Source: an uncultured Planctomycetia bacterium (GTDB taxonomy: Bacteria; Omnitrophota; Gorgyraeia; 1-14-0-20-64-10). Taken from it: DNA of 64,000 bases. Every line of letters starts with the position of its first letter. The first letter of the stretch is position 1. Both the position numbers and the translations under genes were made by a program. Where the stretch lies: contig CAYJQV010000004.1 of NCBI GenBank assembly GCA_964372395.1, forward strand, positions 2,984-66,983, written 5' to 3'. Positions 31,179 through 44,970 of this stretch are shown here, one piece after another. The notes under the pieces were generated by a model, which did not search any database, was not told where the DNA came from, and worked only from the letters and a program-made list of their open reading frames with translations.

Positions 31179-31181
31179 GCG

Positions 31182-32021
31182 TTACTTGGGGGCGAAGCCG
31201 AAGCTCACCTGCTTGCTTTCCCCCTCCTCCAGCGTGATCTTTTGAACCTGCGTCCCCAGCTTCTCGTGCCAGGCCTCCACCGTGTAGGAGCCGGCCGGCA
31301 GGCCCCGGATTGAAAAGGTTCCATCCTCCTTGCTCACGGCGAAGAAGGGATGGCTGAAGACGCCCGCGTGGGCCGACATCCAGGGGTGGACATTGCACTT
31401 GAAGGGGACCCCCACCTCCTCCTTGTCGAACGTCTTGGTGGTCTTCATCCCCTTCTGCGGCTGGGCGAGGTTGAACTTCTTGTTCAGCTTCGCCTGGCAG
31501 TTGATGTTGTGGAGGGTGGGGTCGGAGTTTCGGATCTCCAGCGGCTGGCCCGCCTGGATCCCGAAGACGTGAGGTTCGTAGAGGCAGCCAGCCTGGTCGA
31601 GGACGACCGGCGCGGTCGGGGCGGGGAAGCTTCCCTGCACCCCCTCCTTGACGTAGACGAGCACGTGCTGGAGGGCGCCGTTGTTGACCACCACCTCCTG
31701 CGAGAGGGCCTCCCCCGAATGCTGCTGAAGGCAGACCGGATCGGCGGACATCTTCAGCTTCTGGCGGGCGGGTGCTGAACCGCTGAAACTCACCTTGCCG
31801 GAGATGCTGCCGCTTCCCGCGGGAGCCGCTTCTGCTAAGTTTTTGTCCAGGAATGTCCCGCGATGCGGGGCTTCTTCCGGCGCCGGGGCCTGTGCTACCC
31901 GGCCGGCGGTGGTCCCTTCCGGCTTCTTCCCCGCCGCCAGCGCCGATAAACCGTCCAACCCCCACACCACAAGAAGAGAAGTAACGCATGCCGTTGCCGC
32001 TGCCTTGAAGAGGGGTCTCAT
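31182..32021 (-). CDS. secreted cupredoxin-like (type-1 copper) protein
   Basis: AAAGGAGGAGG RBS. Signal peptide MRPLFKAAATACVTSLLVVWG. Candidate T1Cu ligands ...EPHVFG... and ...FKCNVHPWMSAH... (C-x2-H-x2-M). Confidence 0.5.
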   Translation of the reverse strand: MRPLFKAAATACVTSLLVVWGLDGLSALAAGKKPEGTTAGRVAQAPAPEEAPHRGTFLDKNLAEAAPAGSGSISGKVSFSGSAPARQKLKMSADPVCLQQHSGEALSQEVVVNNGALQHVLVYVKEGVQGSFPAPTAPVVLDQAGCLYEPHVFGIQAGQPLEIRNSDPTLHNINCQAKLNKKFNLAQPQKGMKTTKTFDKEEVGVPFKCNVHPWMSAHAGVFSHPFFAVSKEDGTFSIRGLPAGSYTVEAWHEKLGTQVQKITLEEGESKQVSFGFAPK

Positions 32022-33340
32022 TCCTGTGCCTCCTCCTTTTCCTCCGACGTTAAGACCAGGTTGACCCAAAGAGAATTGGACCGATGCCTTCCCTGCTCGC
32101 CATTGCCGCCGTCCCAGAGCATGATCCCCAGCGGCACCCGTTTCCCAGCGGCCAGCTCAACCCCGCCGGCTCCTGCTTTCAGCGGGCGCCGGAGGAGGAG
32201 CGTCCACCGGCCATCGCTGTAAGAAGCCCCCCCGCGCGCTTCCTTTTCAGCGGACCACATGCGCAGATCCAGCGCCGGTGCATCGGGGCCGGCCGACCAG
32301 TTCCGGAGGGATCCGAAGGACTCCCTCTGCCTGGGATCCGGAAGGAAGGCCAGCGCCGCCGCGTCAGGCGGCGACTCCCGGCTTTCGGTCCGGTCGTGCC
32401 AGGCAAGGAGGAAGGCGATCTCCTCGTCATTGTACAACGCCTTGGCGGAGATTGCATTGACCCGCGAGGGAACGACGCGCCCTTCTCGATAGAGGTTTCC
32501 GGAGAGTCTTAAATCCGACCAGGGGATCGCCTCCCACTGGGGATCCTGCGGACCCTCGGGGAGTTTCCCTGCGGCGGGTGCCGCCTCCACCGTGCGGCTC
32601 CAGCGGGGTTTCACCTGCAGCGAATGGACGTAGTAGGCGAGATCCCACACCTCCGCCGCGGAGACCGCCTCCGCATAGGAGGGCATCGGGGTTCCGTCAA
32701 TGCCGGTCATCAGCCGCGTCAGGATCTCCTTGGGCTCGGAGCCGCTGCGGTAGTTCCATCCCTGCGTCAGATCCGCCGCCTGGATCGGCTCATTCCACTG
32801 GTCCACCAGGGTGGGGGCGGAAGGCCCGTCCCCGCGGCCGAGGTTCCCGTGGCAGGCGTTGCATCCGAGCTGCTTGTACAGCTCCTGGCCCCGCTGGAGG
32901 TTTGCCTTGGGCCGGCCCGGATCGGTGCCGAGCGGGATCGGTTCCGGCTTCTGGTCCGCGAAGGCGGGCGAGAGGCCCTTCACATACTCCACAAGCTGCC
33001 AGCGGGTTTCCTCGGGCAGCCGGGTGAAGTCCGGCATCCGGCTGCCGGGCAGGCCGCCACTAATCGTTTGGAAGAGGTCCTCGTCCGTGGGCGGGGTGCC
33101 GCTCGCGGTGGTTCGGAACTTGAAGACCCCCTCGGACAACGGGCGGGGTCGGGGGAACATGCGTGCCGCGTCCCGGCCGTCACCGGCCCCGGTCGGCCCG
33201 TGGCAGCGGGCGCAGTTGTCCTGATACGCCTGTTGGCCGGCCGCCGGGTCCGGAGCGGGCCGGGCCTGCTGACCAGCCGCCGGAGTGGGCCAGGAGAGGA
33301 GTACGGTCAGGATGAGGGATGCCGGTGGAATTGATCTCAT
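32018..33340 (-). CDS. dihaem c-type cytochrome (signal peptide; CARCH and CNACH motifs) with C-terminal domain of unknown function
   Basis: Two CxxCH haem-binding motifs. First gene of the oxidase operon. Confidence 0.7.
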   Translation of the reverse strand: MRSIPPASLILTVLLSWPTPAAGQQARPAPDPAAGQQAYQDNCARCHGPTGAGDGRDAARMFPRPRPLSEGVFKFRTTASGTPPTDEDLFQTISGGLPGSRMPDFTRLPEETRWQLVEYVKGLSPAFADQKPEPIPLGTDPGRPKANLQRGQELYKQLGCNACHGNLGRGDGPSAPTLVDQWNEPIQAADLTQGWNYRSGSEPKEILTRLMTGIDGTPMPSYAEAVSAAEVWDLAYYVHSLQVKPRWSRTVEAAPAAGKLPEGPQDPQWEAIPWSDLRLSGNLYREGRVVPSRVNAISAKALYNDEEIAFLLAWHDRTESRESPPDAAALAFLPDPRQRESFGSLRNWSAGPDAPALDLRMWSAEKEARGGASYSDGRWTLLLRRPLKAGAGGVELAAGKRVPLGIMLWDGGNGEQGRHRSNSLWVNLVLTSEEKEEAQE

Positions 33341-33413
33341 GGAGAAAGCCCCATTCTAGCCAATGCCAATCCGGCTTGCAACAGCTTCGGGCAGGCCTTC
33401 TTCGGGCCGGCCG

Positions 33414-34493
33414 CTAGAGCTGGCGCAGCAGCAGGGCCGTGAGCAGGCCGAGGTACGTCCCCAGGATGTTCCCGAAGATCGCCATGAGGAGGCCCGCGGT
33501 GGCCAGCCGGGGTGAGAAGGTGGCTCCGACGATCGGCGCCGAGATGGTGCCGCCGATGTTGGCCTGCGAGGCGGTGGCGATGAGCCCCAGGGGCGCCCGG
33601 AGAAGGCAGCCCGCAAGGAGCAGGACCGCCCCGTGGATGGCGATCCAGGTCACCCCCAGCGCGAGAAAGACGGGGGCGGCGGTGACGGCGGTCAGATCGG
33701 CTCGGGCCCCGATGGAGGCGAGCAGCACGTACAGGGCAAGGGTCCCCAGCCGCGGCAGAGCCCCTTGGCCCAGCGTGCGGGCGGCTGTCCCTGAAAGCAG
33801 AAGGGCGAACGTGGTCACGAGCAGGACGGTCCAGGTGGGGGCTGTGATAACCCTGCCGACCGGAGGCAGCCTCTGAGCCAGAGATTGGGCCGCCCAGGAG
33901 ACCGCCAGGCCGAGGCCAATTCCCAGGGCCAGATTCCTGGCGGAGCGGGAGGCGCCGCTCTCGTGGCTGGTCCGCCGCGCGGTTTCCTCGTCTGTTTCCG
34001 GCATGACCCCGCGCCAGACCCACTTTTCCTGCAACCCGGCGCTGGCGATGAGGAGCGCCATCCAGCTGTAGGCCACCGCGGCATCCACGACCACGATGGG
34101 ACCGATGAGGGAATCCGGCACCTGCAGCGCCTCCTTGATCGCCAGCAGATTCGCAGAGCCCCCGATCCAGCTGGCCGATAGGGCACCCACCGCTCCCCAG
34201 GCGCCGGCGGGCAGCCAGGCCCTGTAGAGGGAAAAGCTCACCAGGGCTCCGATCACGGTGCCGGCGGAACCGGCCAGCATGACGAGCAGCGCCTTTCTTC
34301 CGAGAGCCGCCATGGACGCGAGGTCGGTTCCCAACAGGAGGAAGACGAGACAGATCGGCAGGAGCTGCTCGGAGAGGAGGGGGTAGGCGGGATGGCTTCT
34401 CGGGATCCAGCCCGCCGCGCTGGCCAGCATCGGCAGGAAGTAGCACCAGAACGGGACCGGTATCCGGCGCAGGATTCGAGGCAGAGAATTCAT
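33414..34493 (-). CDS. DUF819-family integral membrane protein
   Basis: 359 aa with ~10 TM helices. Confidence 0.55.
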   Translation of the reverse strand: MNSLPRILRRIPVPFWCYFLPMLASAAGWIPRSHPAYPLLSEQLLPICLVFLLLGTDLASMAALGRKALLVMLAGSAGTVIGALVSFSLYRAWLPAGAWGAVGALSASWIGGSANLLAIKEALQVPDSLIGPIVVVDAAVAYSWMALLIASAGLQEKWVWRGVMPETDEETARRTSHESGASRSARNLALGIGLGLAVSWAAQSLAQRLPPVGRVITAPTWTVLLVTTFALLLSGTAARTLGQGALPRLGTLALYVLLASIGARADLTAVTAAPVFLALGVTWIAIHGAVLLLAGCLLRAPLGLIATASQANIGGTISAPIVGATFSPRLATAGLLMAIFGNILGTYLGLLTALLLRQL

Positions 34494-35578
34494 GGGCCCG
34501 GAAAGGGGAACTCCACGCCGGTCCCCGGTCGAGTGGGGCAGACCCCCAGGCGAGCCCCTCGGGCCGAGAAGCCGGGGCGGCAGCGCGGGGAGACGACCAG
34601 GAGGTGCGAGTCCAGGTCAACGAAGTTGAAGGCGCCGGATCCGCAGGCCAGGGCGACACTGTGCGAGAGGCCGATCGCCGATTCCGCCATGCATCCGATC
34701 ATGAGCGTTCTCTGAGCCGCCCGGGCCCGCCCGATGATCTGGATCGCACCCATCAGGCCGCACTTGGCCAGCTTCACGTTGATCACCGAGACCCACCGCC
34801 GGCGCAGAAGCCGCAGCGTCTCCTCCACGGTCCGGGCCGATTCGTCCGCGGCGACCGGGATGAGCCCTTCCATTTCCACCCGGCGCAGGCCCTCCGGATC
34901 GGAGCGCGGGACCGGCTGTTCGAACAGCCGGACCGGCAACCGCTGCTGGCGCAGGAAAAGGCAGAATCGGATCGCCTCCAAAGCGGAGAATCCCTGGTTG
35001 CCGTCCATCCAGAGGGCCGCGCGTGGGGCGACGCGGTGAACCGCGACCAGCCTGCGGAGGTCCTGGTCGATGTCCCGGCCGGTGACCTTCACCTTGAGCC
35101 GGCGGAAGCCGGCGCGGGCCACCCGGCGCGCGAAGCGTGCGGCAACCTCCGGCTCCCAGGCGGAGATCGTGATGCCCGTGGTGACGGAACGCCGCCGCCC
35201 ACCCAGCCAGCGCCAGAGGGGCAGACCCGCCGCGCGGGTGTAGGCATCGATGAGCGCGCATTCCAGCGCCGAGGCCGCTGCCGGCTGTTCCCCCGCTTGC
35301 TGCCAGAGGCGATGAAGCCGTCGGCGAAAGGAGGAGATCGGCTGCCCCATGAGCGTCGGGATGAGGGGCCGCAGCGCCTTGACCATCGATCCTTGCGTCT
35401 CCTCCGGCCAGGCGAGGGAGGCGGAGGCCTCCCCGTAGCCGGTCGTCCCATTCGACAGCCGCACGGCCACCAGGAGATTCCGGCTTTCCCATTTCTCACC
35501 GAGGGCCGTGACGAACGGCTGGCGCAGGGGCAGATGGAGGGGCAGCAGCCCCACGCCGGCGATCCGCGGGGCAGTCAC
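34490..35578 (-). CDS. mandelate racemase/muconate lactonizing enzyme family protein, dipeptide (L-Ala-D/L-Glu) epimerase-like
   Basis: GTG start overlapping the NlpC/P60 stop (GTGA). KVKV catalytic lysines, metal ligands (...WMDGNQG..., ...AADES..., ...DLDS...), second Lys in ...INVKLAKCG.... Confidence 0.7.
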   Translation of the reverse strand: MTAPRIAGVGLLPLHLPLRQPFVTALGEKWESRNLLVAVRLSNGTTGYGEASASLAWPEETQGSMVKALRPLIPTLMGQPISSFRRRLHRLWQQAGEQPAAASALECALIDAYTRAAGLPLWRWLGGRRRSVTTGITISAWEPEVAARFARRVARAGFRRLKVKVTGRDIDQDLRRLVAVHRVAPRAALWMDGNQGFSALEAIRFCLFLRQQRLPVRLFEQPVPRSDPEGLRRVEMEGLIPVAADESARTVEETLRLLRRRWVSVINVKLAKCGLMGAIQIIGRARAAQRTLMIGCMAESAIGLSHSVALACGSGAFNFVDLDSHLLVVSPRCRPGFSARGARLGVCPTRPGTGVEFPFPGP

Positions 35579-36540
35579 CGAAGATAGCTCCCGAACCAGA
35601 CACGGCGGTTGCCTGCCTGTCTGAGCCACTCCTCCAGTGAGATCTCCCGCACCCGCTGCCCTGTGCCGGGGCCCTCGATCACCTTTCCATCGCCCGCGTA
35701 AAGTGCGACATGGCTGATCCGATCCGGTTTTTCCGGATCGGAGAGAAAGAGCAGATCGGCCGGCTGCAGCTCCTCGCGCCCGATCTGCCGCGCCTTCATC
35801 CACTGTTCGTGCGCATCCCGCGGGATCTGGACACCGGCGGCCTGATGGACCAGCCCGACAAGGCCGGAGCAGTCGACTGCGGTGTGCGGCGGGCCGACGG
35901 CACCGGGATCGTGCGCCGATCGCCCCCCCCAGTAGTAGGGATCGCCGAGGAAGAGGCGCGCCAACCGGACGATCTCCTCCCGGGCGGGAAATTGGTCCGC
36001 AGCGTTCAGGGCGCCGGGCTCCCGCGCCTCCTTCTCCCGGAGCCAGCCGGCGGTGCCGTCCAGCAACCGGATCTTCCGCCAGCCGCCGTGGGACGTCCCC
36101 ATCAGCCGCGTTCCGAGGGAGAGGGAAAGCAATGCGGCCGCCCGGCCGTTCGGGGCAGAGCGCACCTGCGCGATTTTCGCGAGGACCACCAGATTGAAGA
36201 GCCAGCCCTTCTGCTCCTCCACCAGATCGGAAAGCCGGACCCAGCCCGGATACCCTTCCCACTGCCCGTTGTGGGTCCATTCCAGCTGGTCCACAGCAGC
36301 CACGCGGGCCCAGCCTCCACGGATCTCCTGCACCCGGACCGGGTCGCCGTAGAGGAGCTGGCTTTCCTCCAGCGGATCGTGCTCCAGCGTGGGCCCCGGT
36401 TCCCCGGGCTCGCGGCGCAGATCGGCCACGGGCACGGCGACCCGCGCCCGGTACAGGAAAGGTTCCTCGGCATTCGCAAGGGGGGATCGAAGCAGCAGCG
36501 CGAGAAGAGCGAGGCCGAGGCAGATCCGCATGGGCTTCAT
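35575..36540 (-). CDS. NlpC/P60 family peptidase with SH3b domains (gamma-D-Glu-L-Lys endopeptidase, YkfC-like)
   Basis: Signal peptide. Two SH3b-like domains. C-terminal ...AVDCSGLVGLVH...H...H... Cys-His-His catalytic triad. Confidence 0.75.
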   Translation of the reverse strand: MKPMRICLGLALLALLLRSPLANAEEPFLYRARVAVPVADLRREPGEPGPTLEHDPLEESQLLYGDPVRVQEIRGGWARVAAVDQLEWTHNGQWEGYPGWVRLSDLVEEQKGWLFNLVVLAKIAQVRSAPNGRAAALLSLSLGTRLMGTSHGGWRKIRLLDGTAGWLREKEAREPGALNAADQFPAREEIVRLARLFLGDPYYWGGRSAHDPGAVGPPHTAVDCSGLVGLVHQAAGVQIPRDAHEQWMKARQIGREELQPADLLFLSDPEKPDRISHVALYAGDGKVIEGPGTGQRVREISLEEWLRQAGNRRVWFGSYLR

Positions 36541-36586
36541 TATCCCACCGGGGCCCAAGCGGCGGGATTATAATGGGACCGTTGCC

Positions 36587-37384
36587 ATGCGCCGGATTTC
36601 CGTCCTCGCGATCTCAGCCCTTCTTTATTCTTCCCTTTTCCCGCGCCCGGTTTTCCCCCTGAACCTGGATCGTCTGGACGCCGAGGAGCTCCGCTTGAGG
36701 GAATCGATCATGAGGCGGCTCGTTCCGCTCGCCGACCGGCGCAGGCAAGAGGGAACCGCACCCCTCATCACCTTCGAGGAGCTGTACGCGGGCCTGAGCC
36801 AGCGGGAGATCGAGTTCCTCGAGCAGTTCCGCCGGGTGGACCCGGCGGAGGTGGGCGGCTCCAGCCGGCGGCTTCCGCCGCCAGCGGCCGACAGCGAATT
36901 CGTCCGGCTGGACCGGCAGGTGGTCCTGCGCGAGGGCAAGCCGATCCGGCTCGATGCACAGTATCTGCCGCGGACAGCGCACGAGGCGTACCGCCGGATG
37001 ATGGCGGCCATGGAGGAGGATCTCGGCAAGCGGCTGCTGGTCGAGTCCGGATACCGCTCCCCGGCCTATCAGCTCTACCTCTTCCTCTACTACATGCCAA
37101 AGCACGGCCACTCCGTCCGGGAGACCAACCGCCACGTCGCCCTGCCCGGGTGCAGCGAGCATGGGAGCCCCGATTTTCAGGCGATCGACTTCATCACCCC
37201 GGAGGGGGTGAACGGCGAGGATCGGCCGGAGGAGTTCGAGGAGCTGCAGGAGTACGGCTGGCTGCGGGCTCGCGCGCGGGAGTTCGGCTTTCGCCTGTCG
37301 TACCCTCGCGGCGGTCCCTCCGCATTCGAGCCATGGCACTGGCATTGGGAGAAAGGGAACTTTTCGGAAAGGGACTTTCCATGA
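36587..37384 (+). CDS. peptidase M15 family (VanY-like D-Ala-D-Ala / L,D-carboxypeptidase), secreted
   Basis: Signal peptide MRRISVLAISALLYSSLF. ...SGYRSPAYQ... and ...HGSPDFQAIDF... are Zn-ligand motifs. Confidence 0.7.
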   Translation: MRRISVLAISALLYSSLFPRPVFPLNLDRLDAEELRLRESIMRRLVPLADRRRQEGTAPLITFEELYAGLSQREIEFLEQFRRVDPAEVGGSSRRLPPPAADSEFVRLDRQVVLREGKPIRLDAQYLPRTAHEAYRRMMAAMEEDLGKRLLVESGYRSPAYQLYLFLYYMPKHGHSVRETNRHVALPGCSEHGSPDFQAIDFITPEGVNGEDRPEEFEELQEYGWLRARAREFGFRLSYPRGGPSAFEPWHWHWEKGNFSERDFP

Positions 37385-38943
37385 AGCCGGTGTCTCCCAA
37401 GGCGGAGCGCCCCAGCCTTTCCTGGAAGGGGCTGTACAAGGAGGCGGCGCTCTACCAAGCGGCGCTGAAGCTTTACACCAAGGCCCTCTTCCAGTGGAGG
37501 AAAGCCCTCTCCACCTCCTCCGATGGGAAGACGCTCTACGATTTTGCCCGGACGGGTCTGGAGCGCTTGGATTCGGTTCATGGAAGGCTCGAGTCTGCCA
37601 CGTTCCACTTCCGCGCGGGGACCGCCCGCACCCACAACTTCAACGGAAAGATCCGAACGCTGTACATCTATCCATGGGAGGAAAAGGTGGTGGATCTGCT
37701 GCTCTACCGGCTGATGAATGCGAAATTCCACGCCCTTTTTTCACCCTGCTCTTACGCCTACCGGTGGCGCGGGTACGGCGTAGACCTCTGCCAGAGGCGC
37801 CTCGCGTCCCAGATCGGACGGAAGGGCAAGCCCCTCTATCTCTTCAAGCGGGACATTGCCAGGTTCTTCGATTCCATCGACCATTCGATTTTGCTGGAGC
37901 GGCTCTCCGAATACGTCCCGCAGGAGGATTACCTCTGGCAGCTTCTCCGGCAGCGGGTGGAGTTTCCCTATGAAGCAGGCGGGCGGATCGTACGGGCGGC
38001 GCAGGGGGTTCCTTTCGGGACCCCGGTGGCCTGTTTCTTTGCGAACCTGTATCTGACGTGGCTGGACCGCCAGCTGGACCAGCGAAAGGGCCTGGCGTAC
38101 TTCCGCTATGCAGATGACCTGATCGGGATCGGATCCGATCCCGATGTGGTGCTGGCTGCGGCCGACTGCTGCGACCGGATGCTGGAGGAGCTGAAACTCT
38201 CCGTCAAGCCGAGCCAGTTTCTGCAGGGAGTTGTCTGCGCCACCCCGACGGAGCGCCCGCCCTTTGCCTGGATCACAAGGTTCAGGCACCTGGGACTGGA
38301 ATTTCGGTGCGATGGCCGCACAGGCCTTTCGAGGGACAAGAGGCGGAAGATCTGCAACCTTTTCCAGTATGCCTTCCGCCGCAAGGCAGGGCGGTTTCGC
38401 AAGATTTCCTCTCCGCAAAAGCGGGCCGAGCTGGCGGTGGAGATCGCCCGAAGGGTTCTGGACCAGCAGCTCCGGCACGTCAGCATCATCGACTACTACC
38501 TCAGGCACGTCCGGGATGAAGAGCAACTGCGGCAGATCGACCGGTGGCTGGCGGAGGAGGTTCTCTCCATCTCTCTGGGCGGGCACCGAAGGGGACATTT
38601 TCGTCGGATCTCCTTCCGGCGGTTGCGCGAGATGGGCCTGCCCTGCCTACGGCACCGCAGCCGCCTGATCCGCCACGGCCAGATCAAAACCTCCTTCTTC
38701 CGTTGGAAGGAGTATCAGCAACAGAAGGCAAAGCGAGGGGGATGGCGCCAGGCTGGAGGTCGGAAAAACCCCAGCCTTTTCCCCGTGCCTGGAAGCATCC
38801 GCCGCGAGCACCCCGTGGGAGAGGGAGGCGGACTGTCGACAGGCGGTATTGAAGACAGATTCGCTGAAGCGAATCTGTCGTTGTCCTGCCATCCCCCTTC
38901 GCTTCCATCCAAGAGAGAGGAGCCGACCGATGGGGCTTCTTGA
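37381..38943 (+). CDS. reverse transcriptase (RNA-directed DNA polymerase), retron / group-II-intron-like lineage, free-standing
   Basis: ATGA overlap with the M15 stop. RT motifs 1/2 (RTLYIYPWEEKVVDLLLYRLMN; SYAYRWRGYG), motif A (LFKRDIARFFDSIDHSILL), motif B (QGVPFGTPVACFFANLYL), motif C FRYADDLIGIG (YADD at 38107-38118), motifs 6/7 (LKLSVKPSQF...FRHLGLEF). No En/HNH or maturase-intron context. The C-terminal ~100 aa is low-complexity and may be non-coding. Confidence 0.85.
   Translation: MKPVSPKAERPSLSWKGLYKEAALYQAALKLYTKALFQWRKALSTSSDGKTLYDFARTGLERLDSVHGRLESATFHFRAGTARTHNFNGKIRTLYIYPWEEKVVDLLLYRLMNAKFHALFSPCSYAYRWRGYGVDLCQRRLASQIGRKGKPLYLFKRDIARFFDSIDHSILLERLSEYVPQEDYLWQLLRQRVEFPYEAGGRIVRAAQGVPFGTPVACFFANLYLTWLDRQLDQRKGLAYFRYADDLIGIGSDPDVVLAAADCCDRMLEELKLSVKPSQFLQGVVCATPTERPPFAWITRFRHLGLEFRCDGRTGLSRDKRRKICNLFQYAFRRKAGRFRKISSPQKRAELAVEIARRVLDQQLRHVSIIDYYLRHVRDEEQLRQIDRWLAEEVLSISLGGHRRGHFRRISFRRLREMGLPCLRHRSRLIRHGQIKTSFFRWKEYQQQKAKRGGWRQAGGRKNPSLFPVPGSIRREHPVGEGGGLSTGGIEDRFAEANLSLSCHPPSLPSKREEPTDGAS
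38854..38879 (+). ncRNA. perfect 11-bp stem / 4-nt loop hairpin (GACAGATTCGC-TGAA-GCGAATCTGTC), candidate structured RNA element at the RT / Zn-ribbon junction
   Basis: Seen directly. The lower-GC, non-coding-looking stretch 38700-38930 surrounds it. Confidence 0.35.
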
Positions 38944-39436
38944 CCGATTGAAGAGAATCGCGCTCTGTCCGGAGTGCCGCTCCAAAGGCGCTGTACGGGA
39001 CTGGAAGGGGGCAGTCCGGTGCCGCAGGCCGGGTTGTCGCCACTACGATTCGAGCCTTTTGAAGGAGGGAAGGCCGTTCGACGTATCCCACCCTGTTGCC
39101 AGGAGAAGTCATACCGGTTCCTTCGATCCAGGGCCACACGGCGTGATGATCCGGTACAGGAACTTCGAGGGGGATGACGTGGAATTCGAAGGGGGCCGCA
39201 GGACGGTGCGTTTTCGGAAGGCCCATATTTCCGTGCGCGCAGCTCCGACCGGGCGACGGATCTCCCTGGCGAAGAAGTTCATCGAAAATCTGTCGGACCT
39301 CAAGCCCAACCCGGCCTTCCCTGTGCCAGAGCCGAGCCGGGTCGAGCGCCAAATCCTGGCGTTCCACCACAGAAGGGGGAGCACATCGCCGCGCTACGAG
39401 GAGTTGCGCCGGAAGTATCCCAGTTGGACCCCGTGA
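38930..39436 (+). CDS. zinc-ribbon hypothetical protein co-transcribed with the RT
   Basis: AGAGAGGAG RBS. CPEC...CRRPGC Zn ribbon at the N-terminus. 14-nt overlap with the RT ORF end. Confidence 0.55.
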   Translation: MGLLDRLKRIALCPECRSKGAVRDWKGAVRCRRPGCRHYDSSLLKEGRPFDVSHPVARRSHTGSFDPGPHGVMIRYRNFEGDDVEFEGGRRTVRFRKAHISVRAAPTGRRISLAKKFIENLSDLKPNPAFPVPEPSRVERQILAFHHRRGSTSPRYEELRRKYPSWTP

Positions 39437-40770
39437 CGGAACCGCCGGCCCATTCGCTGAAGCGAGCGCTTGGCCTGTGGGACGCGACGGCGCTGGTGGT
39501 CGGCTGCGTGATCGGGGCGGGGATCTTCCGCACCGCCGGCTCGATCGCGGCGCAGCTGCATTCGCCGGGGCTCTTCATGGCGGTCTGGCTGGCGGGCGGC
39601 GTCATCTCCTTCGCCGGGGCCCTCTGCTACGCGGAGCTGGGGGCGGCCTACCCGAAGACCGGCGGGGACTACGTCTACCTGCAGGAGGCCTACGGGCGGC
39701 CGACCGGTTTCGTCTTCGGCTGGGCGAAGCTCTTCACCGAGCGGATCGGAACGATCGCGATCCTGGCGATGGTCTTTGCGGAATACCTGGGATCGAGCGG
39801 CCTGTACGGGCAAACGGCGGTGCGCTGGGTCGCCACGGGCGCGGTCATTCTGCTCACCACGGCCAACGTGGTGGGGGTGCAGGTGGGCAAGAATGTCCAG
39901 AACGTGTTCACCGCACTCAAGCTGGCGGCGATTCTTGGGATCATTGGGATCGGATTTTTCGCCAGCGGGGCCGGGTGGGCGCCGGCGGTTCCGGCCGCTT
40001 CCGCTGCGACGGAGGATGTCCCATGGCGCGCTTTTGGGGTGGCCCTTGTCTTCGTCCTCTGGACCTACGGCGGCTGGACCGAGTCGGCTTATGTCGCGGA
40101 GGAGATCCACGATCCCCACCGGAACCTCCCCTGGTCGATCCTGCTGGGGCTGGGGATTGTCACAGCGCTGTACCTGGCGGTCAACTGGGTTTACCTCTGC
40201 GCGATTCCGTTGGAGGAGATGCCGGGCCGGCCGCTGGTGGCGGCCGAGGTGATGCAGAAAGCGGTCGGCCCTGTGGGGGCCCGGGTGACGGCGCTCATGG
40301 TAGCCGCCTCTGCCTTCGGAGCGCTCAACGGCTACATCATGACCGGCGGGAGGATCCTGCTGGCCCTCGGCCAGGATCATCCGCTGTTCCGACAGTTGGG
40401 GGGGATTCACCCGAGGTTCCTCACCCCGGCGCGTGCCCTCCTCTTCAGCGCCCTGGGCGCGATGGCCATGCTTTGGATCGGCACCTTTGACCAGATCGTG
40501 ACCTACTCCACGGTGGCGATCTCCCTCTTCTTCGCTCTGGGGGCCTTCAGCGTTGTGGTGCTGCGGGTGAAAGACCCAGCCCGGCCCCGGCCGTACCGGG
40601 TGTGGGGTTATCCTCTCACCCCGCTCTTCTTCGTCGCGGCGATGGCCTTCTTCATCGCCGATGTGACCTGGATGCAGCCGAAGGAAACCCTCTTTGGATT
40701 TGGGCTCACGCTCCTGGGGATCCCGGTGTACCTCTGGTCGCGGCGGCTGGAAAAGGAGCGGCGGGGGTGA
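39424..40770 (+). CDS. APC-family amino acid permease
   Basis: 12 TM helices. ...GAGIFRTAGSIAAQ... APC signature. TTG/GTG start. Confidence 0.8.
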   Translation: MDPVTEPPAHSLKRALGLWDATALVVGCVIGAGIFRTAGSIAAQLHSPGLFMAVWLAGGVISFAGALCYAELGAAYPKTGGDYVYLQEAYGRPTGFVFGWAKLFTERIGTIAILAMVFAEYLGSSGLYGQTAVRWVATGAVILLTTANVVGVQVGKNVQNVFTALKLAAILGIIGIGFFASGAGWAPAVPAASAATEDVPWRAFGVALVFVLWTYGGWTESAYVAEEIHDPHRNLPWSILLGLGIVTALYLAVNWVYLCAIPLEEMPGRPLVAAEVMQKAVGPVGARVTALMVAASAFGALNGYIMTGGRILLALGQDHPLFRQLGGIHPRFLTPARALLFSALGAMAMLWIGTFDQIVTYSTVAISLFFALGAFSVVVLRVKDPARPRPYRVWGYPLTPLFFVAAMAFFIADVTWMQPKETLFGFGLTLLGIPVYLWSRRLEKERRG

Positions 40771-41471
40771 GCAGGGGGCGGCTGGGATTGGCGGGGGTTC
40801 TTCTCACGCTGGTTCCGGCGCTGGCGGCCGCGGCCGACCCGGACGAATTCGTCCGCCAGCGCGAGGCGATGGTGGCCGAGCAGATCGAGGCGCGCGGGGT
40901 GAAGGATCCCGGCGTGCTTGATGCGATGCGAACGGTTCCGCGGCACGAGTTTGTTCCGGAGTCGCTGCGCGCGGCCGCGTACCAGGACTCCCCGCTTCCC
41001 ATCGGCGAGGGGCAGACGATCTCCCAGCCGTACATCGTGGCCCTCATGACGGAGCTGGCCGAGGTGGGCCCGCAGGACAAGGCACTCGAGATCGGCACCG
41101 GATCCGGGTACCAGGCTGCGGTGCTGGCGGAGCTCACCCCGCGGCTCTTCACGATCGAGATCCTGCCGGCCCTGGCAGCCCGGGCCGAGGCGACCCTCAG
41201 GCGGCTCGGCTACACCCGCGTGAGGGTGCGCGTGGGGGACGGCTACCTCGGCTGGCCGGAGGAGGCGCCGTTCGATGCGATCCTGGTGACCGCCGCCCCG
41301 GATCACATCCCCCAGCCGCTCGTGGACCAGCTGGCGGAGGGCGGGGTGCTGGTGATCCCGGTCGGGCCGGAGGGCCGGACGCAAGAGCTGAAGCGTCTCC
41401 GGAAGCAAGAAGGCCGCGTGGTTGAAGAGGAGGTCATCCCCGTCATCTTCGTTCCCTTGGTTCGGCAGTAG
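40767..41471 (+). CDS. pcm: protein-L-isoaspartate O-methyltransferase, apparently with N-terminal signal peptide
   Basis: GTGA overlap with the permease stop. N-terminal hydrophobic segment VSRGRLGLAGVLLTLVPALAAAA. ...TISQPYIVALM... and ...EIGTGSGYQAAVLA... are PCMT motifs. Confidence 0.8.
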   Translation: MSRGRLGLAGVLLTLVPALAAAADPDEFVRQREAMVAEQIEARGVKDPGVLDAMRTVPRHEFVPESLRAAAYQDSPLPIGEGQTISQPYIVALMTELAEVGPQDKALEIGTGSGYQAAVLAELTPRLFTIEILPALAARAEATLRRLGYTRVRVRVGDGYLGWPEEAPFDAILVTAAPDHIPQPLVDQLAEGGVLVIPVGPEGRTQELKRLRKQEGRVVEEEVIPVIFVPLVRQ

Positions 41472-41529
41472 CAGGGCATGCTATACTGTCGTCCATGCCG
41501 CACCTGTGGCGGGGTAGCCAGCCAGCTGA

Positions 41530-42546
41530 ATGAGTAGATCCGCTTCGAGAATCTTCCCGGGGTTCGTTCTTGCGCTGCTCATCGGGCTTTGCCCGGAGGG
41601 CTTCCCGAACGTTCCGGTGCGTTCCTTCCGGCTGACGTATGAGGTGAGCCTGCCCGCCATCCCGAACGAGGCGGGTGAGCTGAAGATCTGGGTTCCGCTG
41701 AGCCGGTCCGACGAGATTCAGAGGATCCGGTGGCGGGTGATCCAGGTCCCCTATGCCTACCGGCTGACGAAAGACCCGCAGTACGGCAACGAGATCCTCT
41801 TCCTGGATCTGAAGCGGCCGCTCCCGCCGGCCCTGGATCTGGCGATCCATTACGACGCGGAGGTCCGGGAGGTTCGGCCGGCGATGGAGAGGGCGGAGCC
41901 GTTCATCCCCGACGAGGTCCGCCGCCGGCTGGCCCTTCATCTCGAATCGAATCAGCTCATGGTGGTGGACGACGGGGTTCGGGAGCTGGCCCGGTCGGTG
42001 ACGGCCCATGCGGGCACACCGGCGGAGAAGGCCAGGGCGATCTTCCAGTACGTCATCGAGCGGATGCGCTACGAGAAGGAGACGCCCGGCTGGGGTCAGG
42101 GCGATACCCTGCGGGCCTGCGCGGTCGGGGCGGGCAACTGCACCGATTTCCATTCCCTCTTCATCTCGCTGGCGCGGGCCTCCGGCATCCCGGCCCGGTT
42201 TGCGATCGGCCTGCCGGTGCCGCAGAAGCCGGAGGGGGAGATCCCGGGGTATCACTGCTGGGCGGAGTTCTTCCTGCCGGGTGCCGGCTGGGTTCCGGTG
42301 GATGCGTCAGAGGCCTGGAAGGACCCGCAGCGCACGGATTACTTCTTCGGCACGTACGACCCGAATCGGCTGACGGTGAGTCTCGGGCGGGACGTCCAGC
42401 TCGAGCCGAAGCCGGCCTCCAGCGATTTCATCAACATCTTCTTCTTCCCTTATGTGGAGTTGGACGGGATGCCGTTGGAGAAGGGGCGGTTTCAGACGAG
42501 GTTTCGGTTCCGCGATTTGAACAGCAGAGGAGGCGTTGATGCGTAG
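41530..42546 (+). CDS. transglutaminase-like cysteine protease domain protein (secreted)
   Basis: Signal peptide. ...GAGNCTDFHSLF...H...D... is the Cys-His-Asp core. Confidence 0.7.
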   Translation: MSRSASRIFPGFVLALLIGLCPEGFPNVPVRSFRLTYEVSLPAIPNEAGELKIWVPLSRSDEIQRIRWRVIQVPYAYRLTKDPQYGNEILFLDLKRPLPPALDLAIHYDAEVREVRPAMERAEPFIPDEVRRRLALHLESNQLMVVDDGVRELARSVTAHAGTPAEKARAIFQYVIERMRYEKETPGWGQGDTLRACAVGAGNCTDFHSLFISLARASGIPARFAIGLPVPQKPEGEIPGYHCWAEFFLPGAGWVPVDASEAWKDPQRTDYFFGTYDPNRLTVSLGRDVQLEPKPASSDFINIFFFPYVELDGMPLEKGRFQTRFRFRDLNSRGGVDA

Positions 42547-42763
42547 AGCGCGTTGGATGACTGCGGCGGTGGTTTCGAGCGTCGCGGGGCTTGCCCTGAT
42601 CGGTTGCCAGAGGCAGCAGCCGGCGGGCAAGGGCAAGGAGCACGGCGGCAAGGAGCATGCGGGCGCGGCGCTGAAGGAGCACGGCGGCAAGGAGCACGGC
42701 GGGGCCGCGGTGGCCAAGGAGCACGGCGGCAAGGAGCACGGCGGGGCGACCGTCACGAATTAG
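42536..42763 (+). CDS. small lipoprotein with six KEHGG(A) repeats
   Basis: Lipobox LIGC. Repeats KEHGGKEHAG / KEHGGKEHGG x3. Confidence 0.55.
   Translation: MMRRARWMTAAVVSSVAGLALIGCQRQQPAGKGKEHGGKEHAGAALKEHGGKEHGGAAVAKEHGGKEHGGATVTN
42625..42750. repeat. tandem ~15-bp repeats (aaggagcacggcggc) encoding the KEHGG units
   Basis: Direct inspection of the sequence. Confidence 0.6.
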
Positions 42764-42778
42764 GAAGGAGGAATCAAG

Positions 42779-43189
42779 GTGACGAAAGGCATGAGCACGG
42801 TCCTCTTTGCCGCGTTCGCGATCCTGTCGTTGGCGGGCTCCTCTTTGGGCGCCGAGCCGACGGCGGAGGAGCTGCGGCAGACGATCCGGGATTACATCCA
42901 GTCGCAGGAGCAGCAGACAGGGGCGTTTATCATCCCTGATCCCAAGCAGAAGGGGCTGCTGCGCACCCTGTCCCTCATCCGGGTCCATGAGCGGGTCGGC
43001 AAAACAGGCGATTACTACTACTCCTGCACCGACATGAAGGATCTGAAGAGCCAGGACGAGCTGGACCTGGATTTCGACGTCTCCGACACGGGCGGGAAAC
43101 TTGCGGTCGTTGCGGTGAGGATCCACAAGGACAACGGGAACCCCCGCTACACGTACGACTCGAACGACAACCTCATCCCGCTGGAGTAG
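42779..43189 (+). CDS. secreted hypothetical protein
   Basis: Signal peptide MSTVLFAAFAILSLAGSSLGA. No recognisable domain. Confidence 0.45.
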   Translation: MTKGMSTVLFAAFAILSLAGSSLGAEPTAEELRQTIRDYIQSQEQQTGAFIIPDPKQKGLLRTLSLIRVHERVGKTGDYYYSCTDMKDLKSQDELDLDFDVSDTGGKLAVVAVRIHKDNGNPRYTYDSNDNLIPLE

Positions 43190-43334
43190 TCGGGCAAGTC
43201 CCCCAGGCATCGGCGGACAGCAGCCCCTGATTCTCCAGGTCTGCCTGACCGAGGCCGAGATCCATCGGGATTTCATCCTTGCCCTGAAGCGCCGGAGGCT
43301 CACGGAGCGGTTCTTCTACTGGTTCCCCGCCTCC

Positions 43335-44168
43335 GTGCGGGCTTGGTTGCGGCTTTGCAGTTCCAGGCGGTATAAGAATGCGGCCCGCTCGCGGCAGCTT
43401 TGCGAGCGGGCCGCTTCTTTTCTGGTCCCGCGCCTGCGGGCCGGCCCCGCGCAGTGGGTCGCCCTCGGCGTGGGGCAGGGGGAGAAGGAGATGCTTTTCC
43501 TGCGGCCTCTGGCGCCTCGGCAGAGGATCGAGTACGTACCGTGGGACACCAGTCAGACTCTCCTCGAAATGGCCGGCCGGCGCGCTCTGGGCTGCGGGCT
43601 TTCCGTTTGGGCCATGAAGGCGGACCTGGAGCAGGAGTCGCACTGGAAAGCCGTTCCGGCCGCTCCGCGTGGGAGCCGGAGGGTCCTCTCGGTTTTCGGG
43701 AACAGCCTGGGGGCCGTGAGGCTGGATCGGTTGCTCACCCGCGCCAGCCAGCTCCTTCACCGCGGAGACTGGTTCCTGGTGGACGGGGAGCTCCATGCCG
43801 GAGAGGCAACGCTCGCCGGCTACGATCATCCGGTCAACCGCGCCTTTGCCTTTGCGCCGCTTGAGGCGGCCGGATTCTCGCGGGCCGACGGGGAGCTTCG
43901 CTTCACGCTGCGCGCCCCGAGCGGCGGCTCGCCGCTGGGGCGGCTGGAGAAGCAGTTTGACCTGAAGAGACCGGTCGCCCTGCGCCTGGGCGGGGAGATG
44001 CTCCGGTTCCGGAGGGGAGATCGGATCCGGATGAGTCCTTCCGACAAGTGCGACCTCGAGGCCATGACGGCGCGGCTCGGGCAGGACCGGCTGTTTCAAG
44101 TCGAGGAGCGGCTCCTCTCGTCGGATCGGAGGTTCGCCCTCTGGATCCTGCGCAGGAGCGGCCGGTGA
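43335..44168 (+). CDS. EgtD-like (Methyltransf_33) SAM-dependent methyltransferase, N-terminally short or disrupted
   Basis: ...WVALGVGQGEKEMLFL... (compare ELGSGTSEKT), ...RIEYVPWDTS... (compare FIPFDVD), ...LSVFGNSLGAV... (compare FLGSTIGN). The upstream in-frame region still encodes an EgtD-like N-terminus but has no canonical start codon. Confidence 0.45.
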   Translation: MRAWLRLCSSRRYKNAARSRQLCERAASFLVPRLRAGPAQWVALGVGQGEKEMLFLRPLAPRQRIEYVPWDTSQTLLEMAGRRALGCGLSVWAMKADLEQESHWKAVPAAPRGSRRVLSVFGNSLGAVRLDRLLTRASQLLHRGDWFLVDGELHAGEATLAGYDHPVNRAFAFAPLEAAGFSRADGELRFTLRAPSGGSPLGRLEKQFDLKRPVALRLGGEMLRFRRGDRIRMSPSDKCDLEAMTARLGQDRLFQVEERLLSSDRRFALWILRRSGR

Positions 44169-44836: not shown

Positions 44837-44840
44837 CCTG

Positions 44841-44880
44841 TTCCCCCGGAGGTCAGACCCCCAGGGGGACAGGTCCCTTA
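44841..44880. repeat. degenerate copy D of the palindromic repeat (GGTCAGACCCCC-AGGGGGACAGGTCCC)
   Basis: Intergenic. Partial match to the GGGGTCAGACCC family. Confidence 0.4.
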
Positions 44881-44970
44881 TTTGTGGTAGCATGGGCGCT
44901 GGCGGCGGCGTGGCTGGCCCTCTTCGTCGCGGGCGGGCCGGACGCAGAGGCGGCAGGGACCTCGCCCAGG

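What the first reader, a model, noticed from the sequence alone, without database searches (positions are those of the whole stretch)
37381..39436. Orphan reverse transcriptase translationally coupled to a Zn-ribbon protein: candidate defence-type RT system
A 520-aa ORF carries all RT motifs (motif A FFDSIDH, motif B QGVPFGTP, motif C YADD, motifs 6-7 ...HLGLEF). It therefore belongs to the retron / group-II-intron-like lineage, with the QGxxxxP form rather than the DGR SQ form. It is not inside an intron: the upstream flank is the coding sequence of an M15 peptidase whose stop overlaps the RT start (ATGA). There is no endonuclease domain, no Cas genes, and no obvious TR/VR pair. The RT stop is overlapped by the start of a 168-aa protein with an N-terminal CPEC...CRRPGC zinc ribbon and no known domain, which in turn overlaps the next gene. 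The module has somewhat lower GC than its neighbours, and the last ~100 codons of the RT ORF look non-coding (homopolymers, no GC3 bias) and contain a perfect hairpin. This matches the organisation of defence-associated RTs (retrons, DRT/UG, Abi-like), where an RT cooperates with a small effector and a structured ncRNA. The M15 peptidase gene in first position may be just a neighbour or may be a cell-wall-acting effector.
Basis: partly seen in the sequence, partly recalled or inferred. Interest (0 to 1): 0.8.

Follow-up and report, generated by a model that had tools for sequence, protein, structure and literature searches.

The report
Reverse transcriptase, structured RNA, partner protein
This soil-bacterium locus holds a reverse transcriptase gene, a previously uncatalogued 175-base folded RNA and a small zinc-finger protein gene that always travel together, which resembles the RNA-guided DNA-writing systems bacteria use against viruses, although its actual role is untested.

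Summary
The ORF at 37381-38943 is a genuine reverse transcriptase (RT) with an intact YADD. Its last ~70 codons are not evolving as coding sequence.

That stretch (38731-38904) encodes a ~175-nt structured RNA with a 16-20 bp closing stem, four helices and a pseudoknot. In 66 homologues, 96% of cells are paired and 54 of 59 pairs show compensatory changes. No Rfam family matches.

The 168-aa Zn-ribbon protein follows the RT in every locus with enough sequence. A search started from the RNA alone found the RT upstream in 26 of 26 metagenome loci and the partner downstream in 23 of 23 with room. RT, RNA and partner are therefore an obligate three-part module. The M15 peptidase is only a neighbour.

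The RT scores best against UG26, an uncharacterised class 2 UG/Abi group, but only at 122 bits. Its closest structures are DRT9 and group II intron RTs. The partner has a C4 zinc finger, an SH3/Sm/WYL-like barrel and two helices, with no toxic domain.

I found no defence-island context, no phage copies and no mobile-element genes nearby. The architecture is that of an RNA-templated DRT or retron-like system. A defence role remains inference.

The parts
37381..38943 (+). Reverse transcriptase gene. The folded, conserved protein is aa 1-~452 (nt 37381-~38736). The remaining ~70 codons read through the ncRNA.
   Evidence: RVT_1 E 2e-17. Best PADLOC model is RT_UG26, 122.5 bits. More than 1000 homologues at 50-64% identity. 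AlphaFold pLDDT 82, with aa 455-520 below 50. Closest structures are DRT9, GsI-IIC and G2L4.
38731..38904 (+). Structured ncRNA of about 175 nt, read on the same strand as the RT.
   Evidence: Covariance model R1 scores 145 bits, E 9e-36, and this is the only real match in the window. One copy per locus in all homologous loci; plus strand 96-184 bits against 25-38 bits on the minus strand. 59 pairs, 54 with compensatory changes, 96.2% of cells paired against 41-50% for slid controls. No Rfam family.
38731..38746 (+). P1 5' strand. It pairs with 38889-38904 to close the RNA.
   Evidence: Helix 1: all 17-20 pairs show changes on both sides. Window alignment.
38889..38904 (+). P1 3' strand.
38747..38749 (+). 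Conserved unpaired GCC after the P1 5' strand. G38747 is invariant.
   Evidence: Invariant column G21 of A6. It is unpaired in the consensus structure.
38750..38777 (+). P2 hairpin. The base is conserved. The tip varies in length and sequence.
   Evidence: Helix 2: 6 of 7 pairs covary.
38778..38783 (+). Pseudoknot 5' strand (UUUCCC here, UCUCUC in the consensus). It pairs with 38817-38822.
   Evidence: Helix 3: 99.7% of cells paired, 5 of 6 pairs with changes on both sides.
38787..38844 (+). P3, a two-part stem with a conserved GAA/AGA-type internal loop. It encloses P3a.
   Evidence: Helices 4 and 5.
38811..38826 (+). P3a hairpin. Its loop GUGGGAGA (38815-38822) supplies the pseudoknot 3' strand, 38817-38822.
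   Evidence: Helices 6 and 3.
38845..38853 (+). Conserved single-stranded junction (GGUAUUGAA here; the consensus, extended by one base, is GUUAUGGAAG). A38848, U38849, G38851, A38852 and A38853 are invariant.
   Evidence: Invariant columns in A6. Unpaired in the consensus.
38854..38879 (+). The stem sequence varies freely while the structure is kept.
   Evidence: Helices 7 and 8: 9 of 9 pairs with changes on both sides, 98-99% paired.
38930..39436 (+). Partner gene, 168 aa. C4 Zn-ribbon (aa ~9-36), disordered linker, small SH3/Sm/WYL-like beta-barrel (aa 71-114), two C-terminal helices (aa 137-162).

Best explanation
This is a three-part reverse-transcriptase ribonucleoprotein module made of an RT, a dedicated ~175-nt pseudoknotted ncRNA and a small nucleic-acid-binding partner protein.

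Shown:
- The three parts are inseparable across at least 100 loci from several phyla.
- The RNA has a conserved fold on the RT strand.
- The RT keeps its catalytic YADD.
- The RT ORF merely runs into the RNA.

Inferred:
- The RT binds this RNA and uses part of it as an internal template, and possibly as a primer, to make a defined cDNA. Class 2 UG/DRT enzymes (DRT2, DRT9, DRT10) and retrons do this with their neighbouring ncRNAs.
- The most likely template lies in the conserved single-stranded junctions around the P4 hairpin.
- The partner binds the RNA or the single-stranded DNA product through its Zn-ribbon and its SH3/Sm/WYL-like barrel, and couples it to the output.
- The output is most probably a conflict or defence function. 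The module is patchily distributed, compositionally foreign in this window, and evolves several times faster than its housekeeping neighbour.
For: Linkage:
- The partner is downstream in 80 of 84 loci. The other 4 are truncated.
- The RNA is present once per locus, on the RT strand.
- The RNA-first metagenome search gave the RT upstream in 26 of 26 loci and the partner downstream in 23 of 23 with room.

RNA:
- RNAalifold predicts 46 pairs, 42 of them compensatory.
- With the pseudoknot added there are 59 pairs, 54 with changes on both sides. 96.2% of cells are paired against 41-50% for slid controls, and 0 of 500 shuffles reach the observed values.
- The tail has no codon periodicity and is predicted disordered.
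- The RNA starts exactly 19 nt after the last conserved RT motif in 55 of 64 loci.

RT:
- YADD, YSDD or YGDD is present in 80 of 84 loci; YGGD in L003/L024, and two odd counts (L037, L046) look like pattern mis-hits.
- The best HMM is UG26 in all 34 members tested.
- The top structural neighbour is DRT9, an ncRNA-templated RT.

Partner:
- Its Zn finger resembles the DNA-ligase C4 finger.
- Its barrel resembles ssDNA- or RNA-binding WYL and Sm folds.

Accessory character:
- It is found in 141 of 185,579 species genomes.
- GC is 4-10 points lower than the flanks.
- In one syntenic clade the RT is 84% identical and the partner 77%, against 95.5% for the flanking ComM-like gene.

Precedent: class 2 UG RTs use adjacent ncRNA templates (PMC12632851, PMC9226505).
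Against: - There is no expression, binding or cDNA data.
- No template can be named from sequence alone.
- I found no recognisable effector or toxin. Only two variants (L011, L016) have predicted membrane helices.
- I found no defence-island context in 226 neighbouring ORFs, no viral copies, and no integrases or transposases among the recurrent neighbouring Pfam families.
- Stable synteny across 13 species in one clade is unusual for defence genes.
- The RNA lies downstream of the RT, whereas in DRT2, DRT9, DRT10 and retrons it lies upstream.
Confidence: 0.55

Rival explanations
1. The parts are the same, but the job is a cellular one rather than defence. On this view it is a domesticated RT ribonucleoprotein that makes a templated DNA for genome maintenance, repair or another host process, comparable to G2L4 in double-strand-break repair or to telomerase-like repeat addition.
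For: - Neighbours are housekeeping genes with no defence enrichment.
- It is absent from viral contigs.
- Synteny (ComM-like gene, RT, partner, CLC channel) is conserved across 13 species genomes.
- RT and RNA sequences are very strongly conserved across phyla.
- The RT is as close to group II and G2L4 RTs as to DRTs.
Against: - Only 141 of 185,579 species genomes carry it, so it is not a core function.
- It evolves 3-5 times faster than the adjacent ComM-like gene.
- Its GC is lower than the flanks in the window.
- The scattered phylum distribution at about 50% identity suggests horizontal transfer.
Confidence: 0.25
2. The priming mode is retron-like rather than protein-primed. P1 plays the part of the a1/a2 stem. 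The invariant unpaired G at 38747, just after the P1 5' strand, supplies a 2'-OH primer. The RT copies the segment just upstream of the P1 3' strand (junction plus P4 hairpin) into a small branched msDNA-like product.
For: - A 16-20 bp closing stem joins the RNA ends.
- An invariant unpaired G directly follows its 5' strand.
- P4 keeps its structure while its sequence varies freely, as msd stems do.
- The comparison with retron anatomy rests on established knowledge of retrons.
Against: - The RT is not a retron RT by sequence. NCBIfam retron_St85 scores 35.8 bits against a cut-off of 235.
- The RNA is downstream of the RT, not upstream.
- The closest solved relative, DRT9, is protein-primed (PMC12483538).
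Confidence: 0.15
3. The RNA is a cis-regulatory element, not a template or scaffold. It could be an RT-binding operator or a translational-coupling structure that controls expression of the partner gene just downstream, much as group II intron proteins bind DIVa.
For: - It sits between two overlapping or adjacent ORFs and ends 25 nt before the partner's ATG.
- RT ribosomes must read into its 5' part in every locus.
Against: - 175 nt, five helices, a pseudoknot and near-invariant junctions conserved across phyla are far more than coupling needs.
- The partner's Shine-Dalgarno sequence lies outside the structure.
- The distance from the RNA to the ATG varies, with inserts of up to ~120 nt in L058, L066, L069 and L075.
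Confidence: 0.1
4. It is a decayed group II intron or another mobile retroelement. On this view the downstream RNA is a remnant of the intron domains.
For: - NCBIfam group_II_RT_mat aligns over aa 44-395 at 110 bits.
- GsI-IIC RT is a top structural match.
Against: - The score is far below the 300-bit cut-off.
- No Intron_gpII or any other Rfam match was found, even with permissive filters.
- There is no upstream RNA. The RT start overlaps the preceding gene.
- There is no endonuclease domain and only a single copy per locus.
- The conserved partner gene is not a group II intron feature.
Confidence: 0.03

Closest known systems
UG26 (class 2 UG/Abi reverse transcriptases; Mestre et al. 2022, PMC9226505)
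   Same: - It is the best-scoring RT model for the window protein and for all 34 family members tested.
- The RT has no fused known domain, as in class 2.
- The published defence prediction for UG26 was also inconclusive.
   Different: - The score is only 122 bits (best member E 6e-42), about 18 bits above a generic RT model.
- The profile does not cover the conserved N-terminal ~85 aa.
- The paper reports 35 members, 9 of them next to a Vsr/YcjD endonuclease, and mentions no ncRNA and no Zn-ribbon partner.
- No such endonuclease recurs among 226 neighbours here.
DRT9 (UG28) RT-ncRNA system
   Same: - It is the top structural neighbour of the RT (9vma, E 6e-19), and ties with GsI-IIC as the top sequence match (phmmer).
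- It also has a highly conserved structured ncRNA next to the RT, and a stand-alone RT with no enzymatic effector.
   Different: - In DRT9 the ncRNA is upstream of the RT and carries a poly-U template for poly-dA synthesis.
- DRT9 has no obligate partner protein.
- Here the U run after P4 is short and not universal.
DRT10 (UG17): RT + ncRNA + SLATT protein, telomerase-like repeat synthesis (PMC12632851)
   Same: It is also a three-part system of RT, ncRNA and protein partner. UG17 is among the better-scoring RT models (75.6 bits).
   Different: - Its partner is a membrane SLATT effector.
- It sits in defence islands.
- Its ncRNA is not downstream of the RT.
- No A-B-A' template pattern could be identified here.
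UG27 systems of gut phages (PMC9226505)
   Same: The gene order is the same: RT, then a conserved structured ncRNA in the gap, then a partner gene of unknown function.
   Different: - UG27 is phage-borne and its RNA has three long stem-loops.
- The RT here scores only 49 bits on the UG27 model.
- This family is absent from IMG/VR.
Retrons
   Same: - RT, ncRNA and an accessory protein.
- The RNA ends are joined by a long stem, with a conserved unpaired G beside it.
- A hairpin whose sequence varies while its structure is kept.
   Different: - The RT fails the retron models.
- The RNA is downstream of the RT.
- It has a pseudoknot.
- No msDNA has been shown.
Group II intron RTs and G2L4
   Same: Fingers, palm and thumb architecture. 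GsI-IIC gives TM 0.60-0.73 and G2L4 gives E 5e-15.
   Different: - There is no intron RNA.
- It is below the NCBIfam cut-off.
- G2L4 is not known to have a dedicated ncRNA or this partner.

Membership tests
UG26 (class 2 UG/Abi RT) | The RT scores best, and strongly, on the UG26 profile. | tested here: inconclusive
   It is best among 79 PADLOC RT models, but at only 122.5 bits (E 4.5e-36). All 34 members have UG26 as best model, with best E 6e-42. PADLOC supplies no curated cut-off here.
UG26 (class 2 UG/Abi RT) | Placement inside the UG26 clade in an RT-domain phylogeny. | not testable with these tools
The paper's supplements are not held.
UG26 (class 2 UG/Abi RT) | No additional known domain fused to the RT, the class 2 hallmark. 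| tested here: met
   Pfam finds only RVT_1. The C-terminal helical domain has no Pfam family.
UG26 (class 2 UG/Abi RT) | Reported co-location with a COG2852/Vsr-like endonuclease (9 of 35 members). | tested here: not met
   It is not among the recurrent Pfam families in 226 flanking ORFs. This is an accessory feature, not a defining one.
ncRNA-templated DRT systems (DRT2, DRT9, DRT10) | A conserved structured ncRNA encoded next to the RT. | tested here: met
ncRNA-templated DRT systems (DRT2, DRT9, DRT10) | The RT binds the ncRNA and reverse-transcribes part of it. | not testable with these tools
   This needs RIP-seq and cDNA sequencing.
ncRNA-templated DRT systems (DRT2, DRT9, DRT10) | It confers phage resistance. 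| not testable with these tools
   This needs phage challenge of the cloned module.
ncRNA-templated DRT systems (DRT2, DRT9, DRT10) | Enrichment in defence islands. | tested here: not met
   PADLOC scans of 135 and 91 flanking ORFs gave only sporadic generic hits.
Group II intron | Intron RNA domains (D5/D6) flanking the ORF. | tested here: not met
   No Rfam match at E up to 1 over 8 kb, nor at E up to 10 over the tail. The RT start overlaps the upstream gene.
Group II intron | RT/maturase above the NCBIfam TIGR04416 cut-off. | tested here: not met
   110.1 bits against a cut-off of 300.
Retron | Retron-type RT. | tested here: not met
   retron_St85 scores 35.8 bits against a cut-off of 235, and Ec67 scores 13.3 against 450.
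Retron | msr/msd RNA with a1/a2 terminal pairing and a branching G. | tested here: inconclusive
   A terminal stem P1 and an invariant adjacent G exist. However, the RNA is downstream of the RT, and a branch cannot be tested here.
Diversity-generating retroelement | A TR/VR repeat pair near the RT. | tested here: not met
   No repeat of 35 nt or more involves the RT region within 30000-48000.
WYL-domain proteins (partner protein) | A match to the WYL family profile or fold. | tested here: inconclusive

The most novel reading that the evidence does not exclude
This is a vertically maintained, non-defence RT ribonucleoprotein of soil Acidobacteriota and allied phyla. Its pseudoknotted RNA, closed by a terminal stem, would serve as the internal template for a defined or repetitive DNA made for a host process. 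An Sm/SH3-like Zn-finger protein would act as the RNA or DNA chaperone. That would make it a bacterial analogue of telomerase-type RNPs, outside the known DRT, retron and group II intron categories.
Probability: 0.15. Interest if true: 0.9.

Novelty: new variant of a known kind. Interest (0 to 1): 0.75.

Why it matters
RT-plus-ncRNA systems such as retrons, DRT2, DRT9 and DRT10 have each revealed an unexpected way of writing DNA, and several have become tools. This module adds a well-defined, easily clonable case of about 2.1 kb from a lineage that has not been studied.

- It is widespread in soil Acidobacteriota and has more than 1000 RT homologues.
- Its RNA fold, with a pseudoknot, a terminal closing stem and near-invariant junctions, is absent from Rfam.
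- Its partner protein belongs to no described family.
- The RT sits between group II intron RTs and class 2 UG RTs. That region of the RT tree is now discussed as the origin of telomerase.

Its product and priming mode would therefore be informative whatever its biological role turns out to be.

Tried and rejected
- Group II intron remnant. Rfam found nothing at permissive thresholds.
- DGR. No TR/VR repeat pair was found.
- M15 peptidase as a component. Upstream genes differ between lineages. In the window the peptidase belongs to a peptidoglycan-peptide cluster.
- Neo-like endless ORF in the RNA, as in DRT2. The sense strand shows no excess of stop-free frames. The antisense strand shows a modest excess, but not in all sequences, and unit lengths are not multiples of 3.
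- Phage-borne system. No relatives were found in IMG/VR.
- Defence-island context. None was found.
- Promoter or terminator scan around the RNA. No sigma-70-like site was found, and the only terminator-like site is on the opposite strand. This is uninformative for this phylum.
- The first genome scan, with the single protein, found nothing. The alignment-based scan worked.
- Supplements of Mestre et al. with the UG26 members are not held, so no direct phylogeny was possible.
- The afdb50 fold library was unavailable. Foldseek against PDB for the partner gave no significant hit.
- A literature search for UG26 and DRT11-15 found no characterisation of this family.


Full report
**What is at the coordinates**

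The ORF at 37381-38943 (+) encodes a 520-aa protein with a Pfam RVT_1 domain (E 2e-17, aa 89-278).

Its ATG overlaps the stop of a VanY/M15 peptidase gene (ATGA). A 168-aa ORF (38930-39436) starts 14 nt before the RT stop. Its own stop overlaps the GTG start of an APC amino-acid permease gene.

The two-gene stretch has GC 0.60-0.625, against 0.65-0.72 on either side. The window is contig CAMTXW010000070.1 of MAG GCA_947085785.1.

The peptidase sits next to an NlpC/P60-SH3 endopeptidase gene and an MR_MLE-type epimerase gene. That looks like a peptidoglycan-peptide cluster unrelated to the RT.

**The RT family**

The RT has more than 1000 homologues at 50-64% identity and 443-538 aa. Most come from soil and groundwater metagenomes.

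An alignment-based scan of one genome per species found relatives in 141 of 185,579 genomes. Most are Acidobacteriota (Terriglobia: Acidiferrum, Acidoferrales, Angelobacter, Sulfotelmatobacter). A few MAGs are labelled Planctomycetota, Verrucomicrobiota, Elusimicrobia, Omnitrophota, Eisenbacteria or Binatia.

Classification results:
- Among PADLOC models the best is RT_UG26 (122.5 bits), followed by a generic RT model (104.9), Drt9 (83.6) and UG17 (75.6). All 34 members tested give UG26 as best, with a best E-value of only 6e-42.
- NCBIfam's group II RT/maturase model aligns at 110 bits, far below its 300-bit cut-off. The retron and Drt2/Drt3 models also fail their cut-offs.
- A family profile searched against PDB sequences hits Cas6-RT-Cas1, DRT9 and the GsI-IIC group II RT at nearly equal E-values of about 1e-18.
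- The AlphaFold model (pLDDT 82) is closest to DRT9, GsI-IIC and G2L4.

The RT is therefore a group-II-like, class 2 UG-like enzyme. It is related to the uncharacterised UG26 group but not clearly inside it. The published description of UG26 covers 35 members, some next to a Vsr-like endonuclease, with an inconclusive defence prediction and no mention of an ncRNA or this partner.

YADD, YSDD or YGDD is kept in 80 of 84 loci. The genuine exception is an Elusimicrobia genome with YGGD, fetched twice as L003 and L024; two odd counts (L037, L046) look like pattern mis-hits.

**The partner is conserved and the peptidase is not**

In three long contigs the RT is followed by a 165-187-aa gene with no Pfam hit, while the flanking genes are unrelated.

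An HMM of this protein finds it directly downstream, on the same strand, in 80 of 84 loci. The other four are cut by contig ends. The Zn-ribbon cysteines are nearly invariant but are missing in one member. The most conserved part is the central and C-terminal region.

**The RNA**

The distance from the last conserved RT motif (FFxW, aa ~439-442) to the partner's ATG is almost constant, at 216-243 nt in most loci. The RT stop codon wanders from about 45 to about 260 nt after that motif.

Aligning these tails shows blocks of near-invariant nucleotides separated by hairpins whose sequences change in a compensatory way.

Structure evidence:
- RNAalifold predicts 46 nested pairs, 42 of them with compensatory changes.
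- I added a pseudoknot by inspection: UCUCUC after P2 pairs with GAGAGA in the loop of P3a. In an alignment not fitted to any structure, 96.0% of cells are paired against 40-50% when partners are slid. 47 of 52 pairs change on both sides, and no shuffle out of 500 reaches the observed values. The pseudoknot helix is 99.7% paired, with 5 of 6 pairs covarying.
- A covariance model built from 57 sequences finds one match in the window, 38731-38904 on the plus strand, at 145 bits and E 9e-36. The next best match scores 12 bits.
- The model finds exactly one copy per homologous locus, always between the RT core and the partner gene. Scores are 96-184 bits on the RT strand and 25-38 bits on the opposite strand.
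- On the model-fitted alignment of 66 sequences, 54 of 59 pairs have changes on both sides and 96.2% of cells are paired.

Rfam has no matching family.

- Codon-position entropy is 0.93/0.72/1.54 in the last 50 core codons and 0.89/0.78/0.88 across the RNA.
- AlphaFold confidence is below 50 for aa 455-520.
- The RNA begins exactly 19 nt after the W codon in 55 of 64 loci.

**Anatomy in the window**

- P1: 38731-38746 pairs with 38889-38904.
- An unpaired GCC follows, with an invariant G at 38747.
- P2: 38750-38777, with a variable tip.
- Pseudoknot: 38778-38783 pairs with 38817-38822.
- P3: 38787-38844, with a conserved purine-rich internal loop. It encloses hairpin P3a (38811-38826).
- A near-invariant junction at 38845-38853 (GUUAUGGAAG in the consensus, one base longer).
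Its stem sequence varies freely.
- A short CGUU(U) junction, then the P1 3' strand.
- The partner's Shine-Dalgarno sequence (GAGGAG, 38915-38920) and its ATG (38930) lie outside the fold.

**An independent test of linkage**

I searched metagenome contigs with a degenerate pattern taken from the RNA alone and screened the 80 returned loci with the covariance model.
- 26 loci carry a true copy at 140-185 bits.
- All 26 have the RT immediately upstream.
- All 23 with enough downstream sequence have the partner.

The RNA is therefore not a general riboswitch-like element. The three parts form one unit.

**The partner protein**

AlphaFold with 62 homologues gives pLDDT 87. The model has a zinc ribbon (aa ~9-31), a disordered linker, a four-stranded small barrel (aa 71-114) and two C-terminal helices.

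- 37 of 62 members weakly match the NAD-ligase C4 zinc finger.
- Foldseek finds nothing significant.
- The family is narrow, with 262 clusters among 1.84 billion representatives.

Some variants carry two to four tandem barrels plus a module resembling the ribosomal L7/L12 C-terminal domain. Two others have what look by eye like transmembrane segments. No member shows a nuclease, a toxin or another enzymatic domain.

**Context**

I scanned 135 immediate and 91 second-ring flanking ORFs (rough ORF calls).
- They are dominated by housekeeping families: CLC channels with CBS domains, ComM/Mg-chelatase-like ATPases, aldo-keto reductases, M48 peptidases and TPR proteins.
- Defence-model hits are sporadic and generic.
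- No integrase or transposase appears among the recurrent Pfam families.
- No relative is present in IMG/VR.

In 13 Acidiferrum-type species genomes the order ComM-like gene, RT, RNA, partner, CLC channel is conserved. There the flanking ComM-like protein is 95.5% identical on average, the RT 84.4% and the partner 77.2%. In that clade the module is inherited vertically but evolves several times faster than its neighbour.

**Interpretation**

Shown:
- An obligate RT-ncRNA-partner module.
- A complex conserved RNA fold on the RT strand.
- A catalytically intact RT.
- A partner built from nucleic-acid-binding-type folds.

Inferred:
- The RT binds this RNA and copies part of it.
- The partner handles the RNA or the DNA product.
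- The purpose is a conflict or defence function.

The inference rests on precedent. DRT2, DRT9 and DRT10 all use adjacent ncRNA templates. It also rests on the accessory, fast-evolving, compositionally foreign character of the module.

The anatomy also allows a retron-like reading, based on the terminal stem, the adjacent invariant G and the variable P4 hairpin.

Against the defence reading stand the housekeeping context, the stable synteny and the lack of an effector. A non-defence cellular role is therefore a serious rival.

A purely cis-regulatory RNA is unlikely given the size and conservation of the fold. A decayed group II intron is contradicted by the tests above.

I looked for a Neo-like endless ORF and did not find one. 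No TR/VR pair exists.

**Novelty**

In the literature I could search, UG26 is only listed as uncharacterised. DRT10 corresponds to UG17 and DRT11 to UG5. Nothing describes this RNA or this partner.

I rate it a new variant of a known kind, namely ncRNA-associated bacterial RT systems. Its distinct features are the gene order, the RNA fold and the partner family.

Noticed in passing
window 34490-37384: Upstream of the RT lies what looks like a peptidoglycan-peptide recycling cluster. It comprises an MR_MLE-type (dipeptide) epimerase on the minus strand, an NlpC/P60 endopeptidase with SH3 domains (35575-36558, minus strand) and the VanY/M15 carboxypeptidase (~36587-37384, plus strand). This explains the peptidase without any link to the RT.
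   Followed up: partly
L070:6737-7876; proteins P0238, P0260, P0293, P0322, P0330, P0332: Some partner-protein variants, seen in Verrucomicrobiota-labelled MAGs, have 2-4 tandem copies of the small barrel. They also carry a module matching the ribosomal L7/L12 C-terminal domain (Pfam PF00542, E down to 3e-27) in place of the usual two C-terminal helices. This hints at contact with translation factors or at reuse of that fold.
   Followed up: partly
L011:6485-7291 and L016:5704-6363: Two partner variants carry long hydrophobic, apparently transmembrane, segments between the Zn-ribbon and the barrel, and lack the C-terminal helices. They could be a membrane-anchored form. The segments were judged by eye only.
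   Followed up: no
protein P0241 (411 aa): One database protein joins the N-terminal half of the RT, ending just before YADD, directly to a full partner protein. It is probably a deletion or an assembly chimera. It does show again that the two genes are adjacent.
   Followed up: no
L003/L024:5001-6527: The Elusimicrobia homologue has YGGD instead of YADD in motif C. It still keeps the ncRNA (160.7 bits) and the partner. It may be an inactive or altered-chemistry RT.
   Followed up: no
L004, L009, L022, L023, L028, L042, L050, L055 (A6 columns ~90-107): The Acidiferrum-type RNAs carry an extra small hairpin (for example CCUC-GCAA-GAGG) inside P3, between the inner stem and P3a. This makes them about 200 nt long instead of about 185 nt.
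   Followed up: partly
L004, L005, L009, L014, L015, L017, L018, L020, L023, L025, L026, L028, L031: The locus order is conserved across 13 species genomes: ComM/Mg-chelatase-like ATPase gene (minus strand), RT, ncRNA, partner, CLC chloride channel gene with CBS domains (minus strand). The flank is 95.5% identical, the RT 84% and the partner 77%.
   Followed up: yes
window 42536-42763 (+), repeats at 42622-42744: A small predicted lipoprotein-like ORF contains tandem 39-42-nt DNA repeats that encode repeated KEHGG(K/A) peptides. It could be a histidine-rich metal-binding protein. It is unrelated to the RT module.
   Followed up: no
L058, L066, L069, L075 (between the ncRNA and the partner ATG): In a few loci the spacer between the end of the RNA and the partner's start codon is 80-120 nt longer than usual. 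The RNA-to-ATG distance is therefore not strictly fixed.
   Followed up: no
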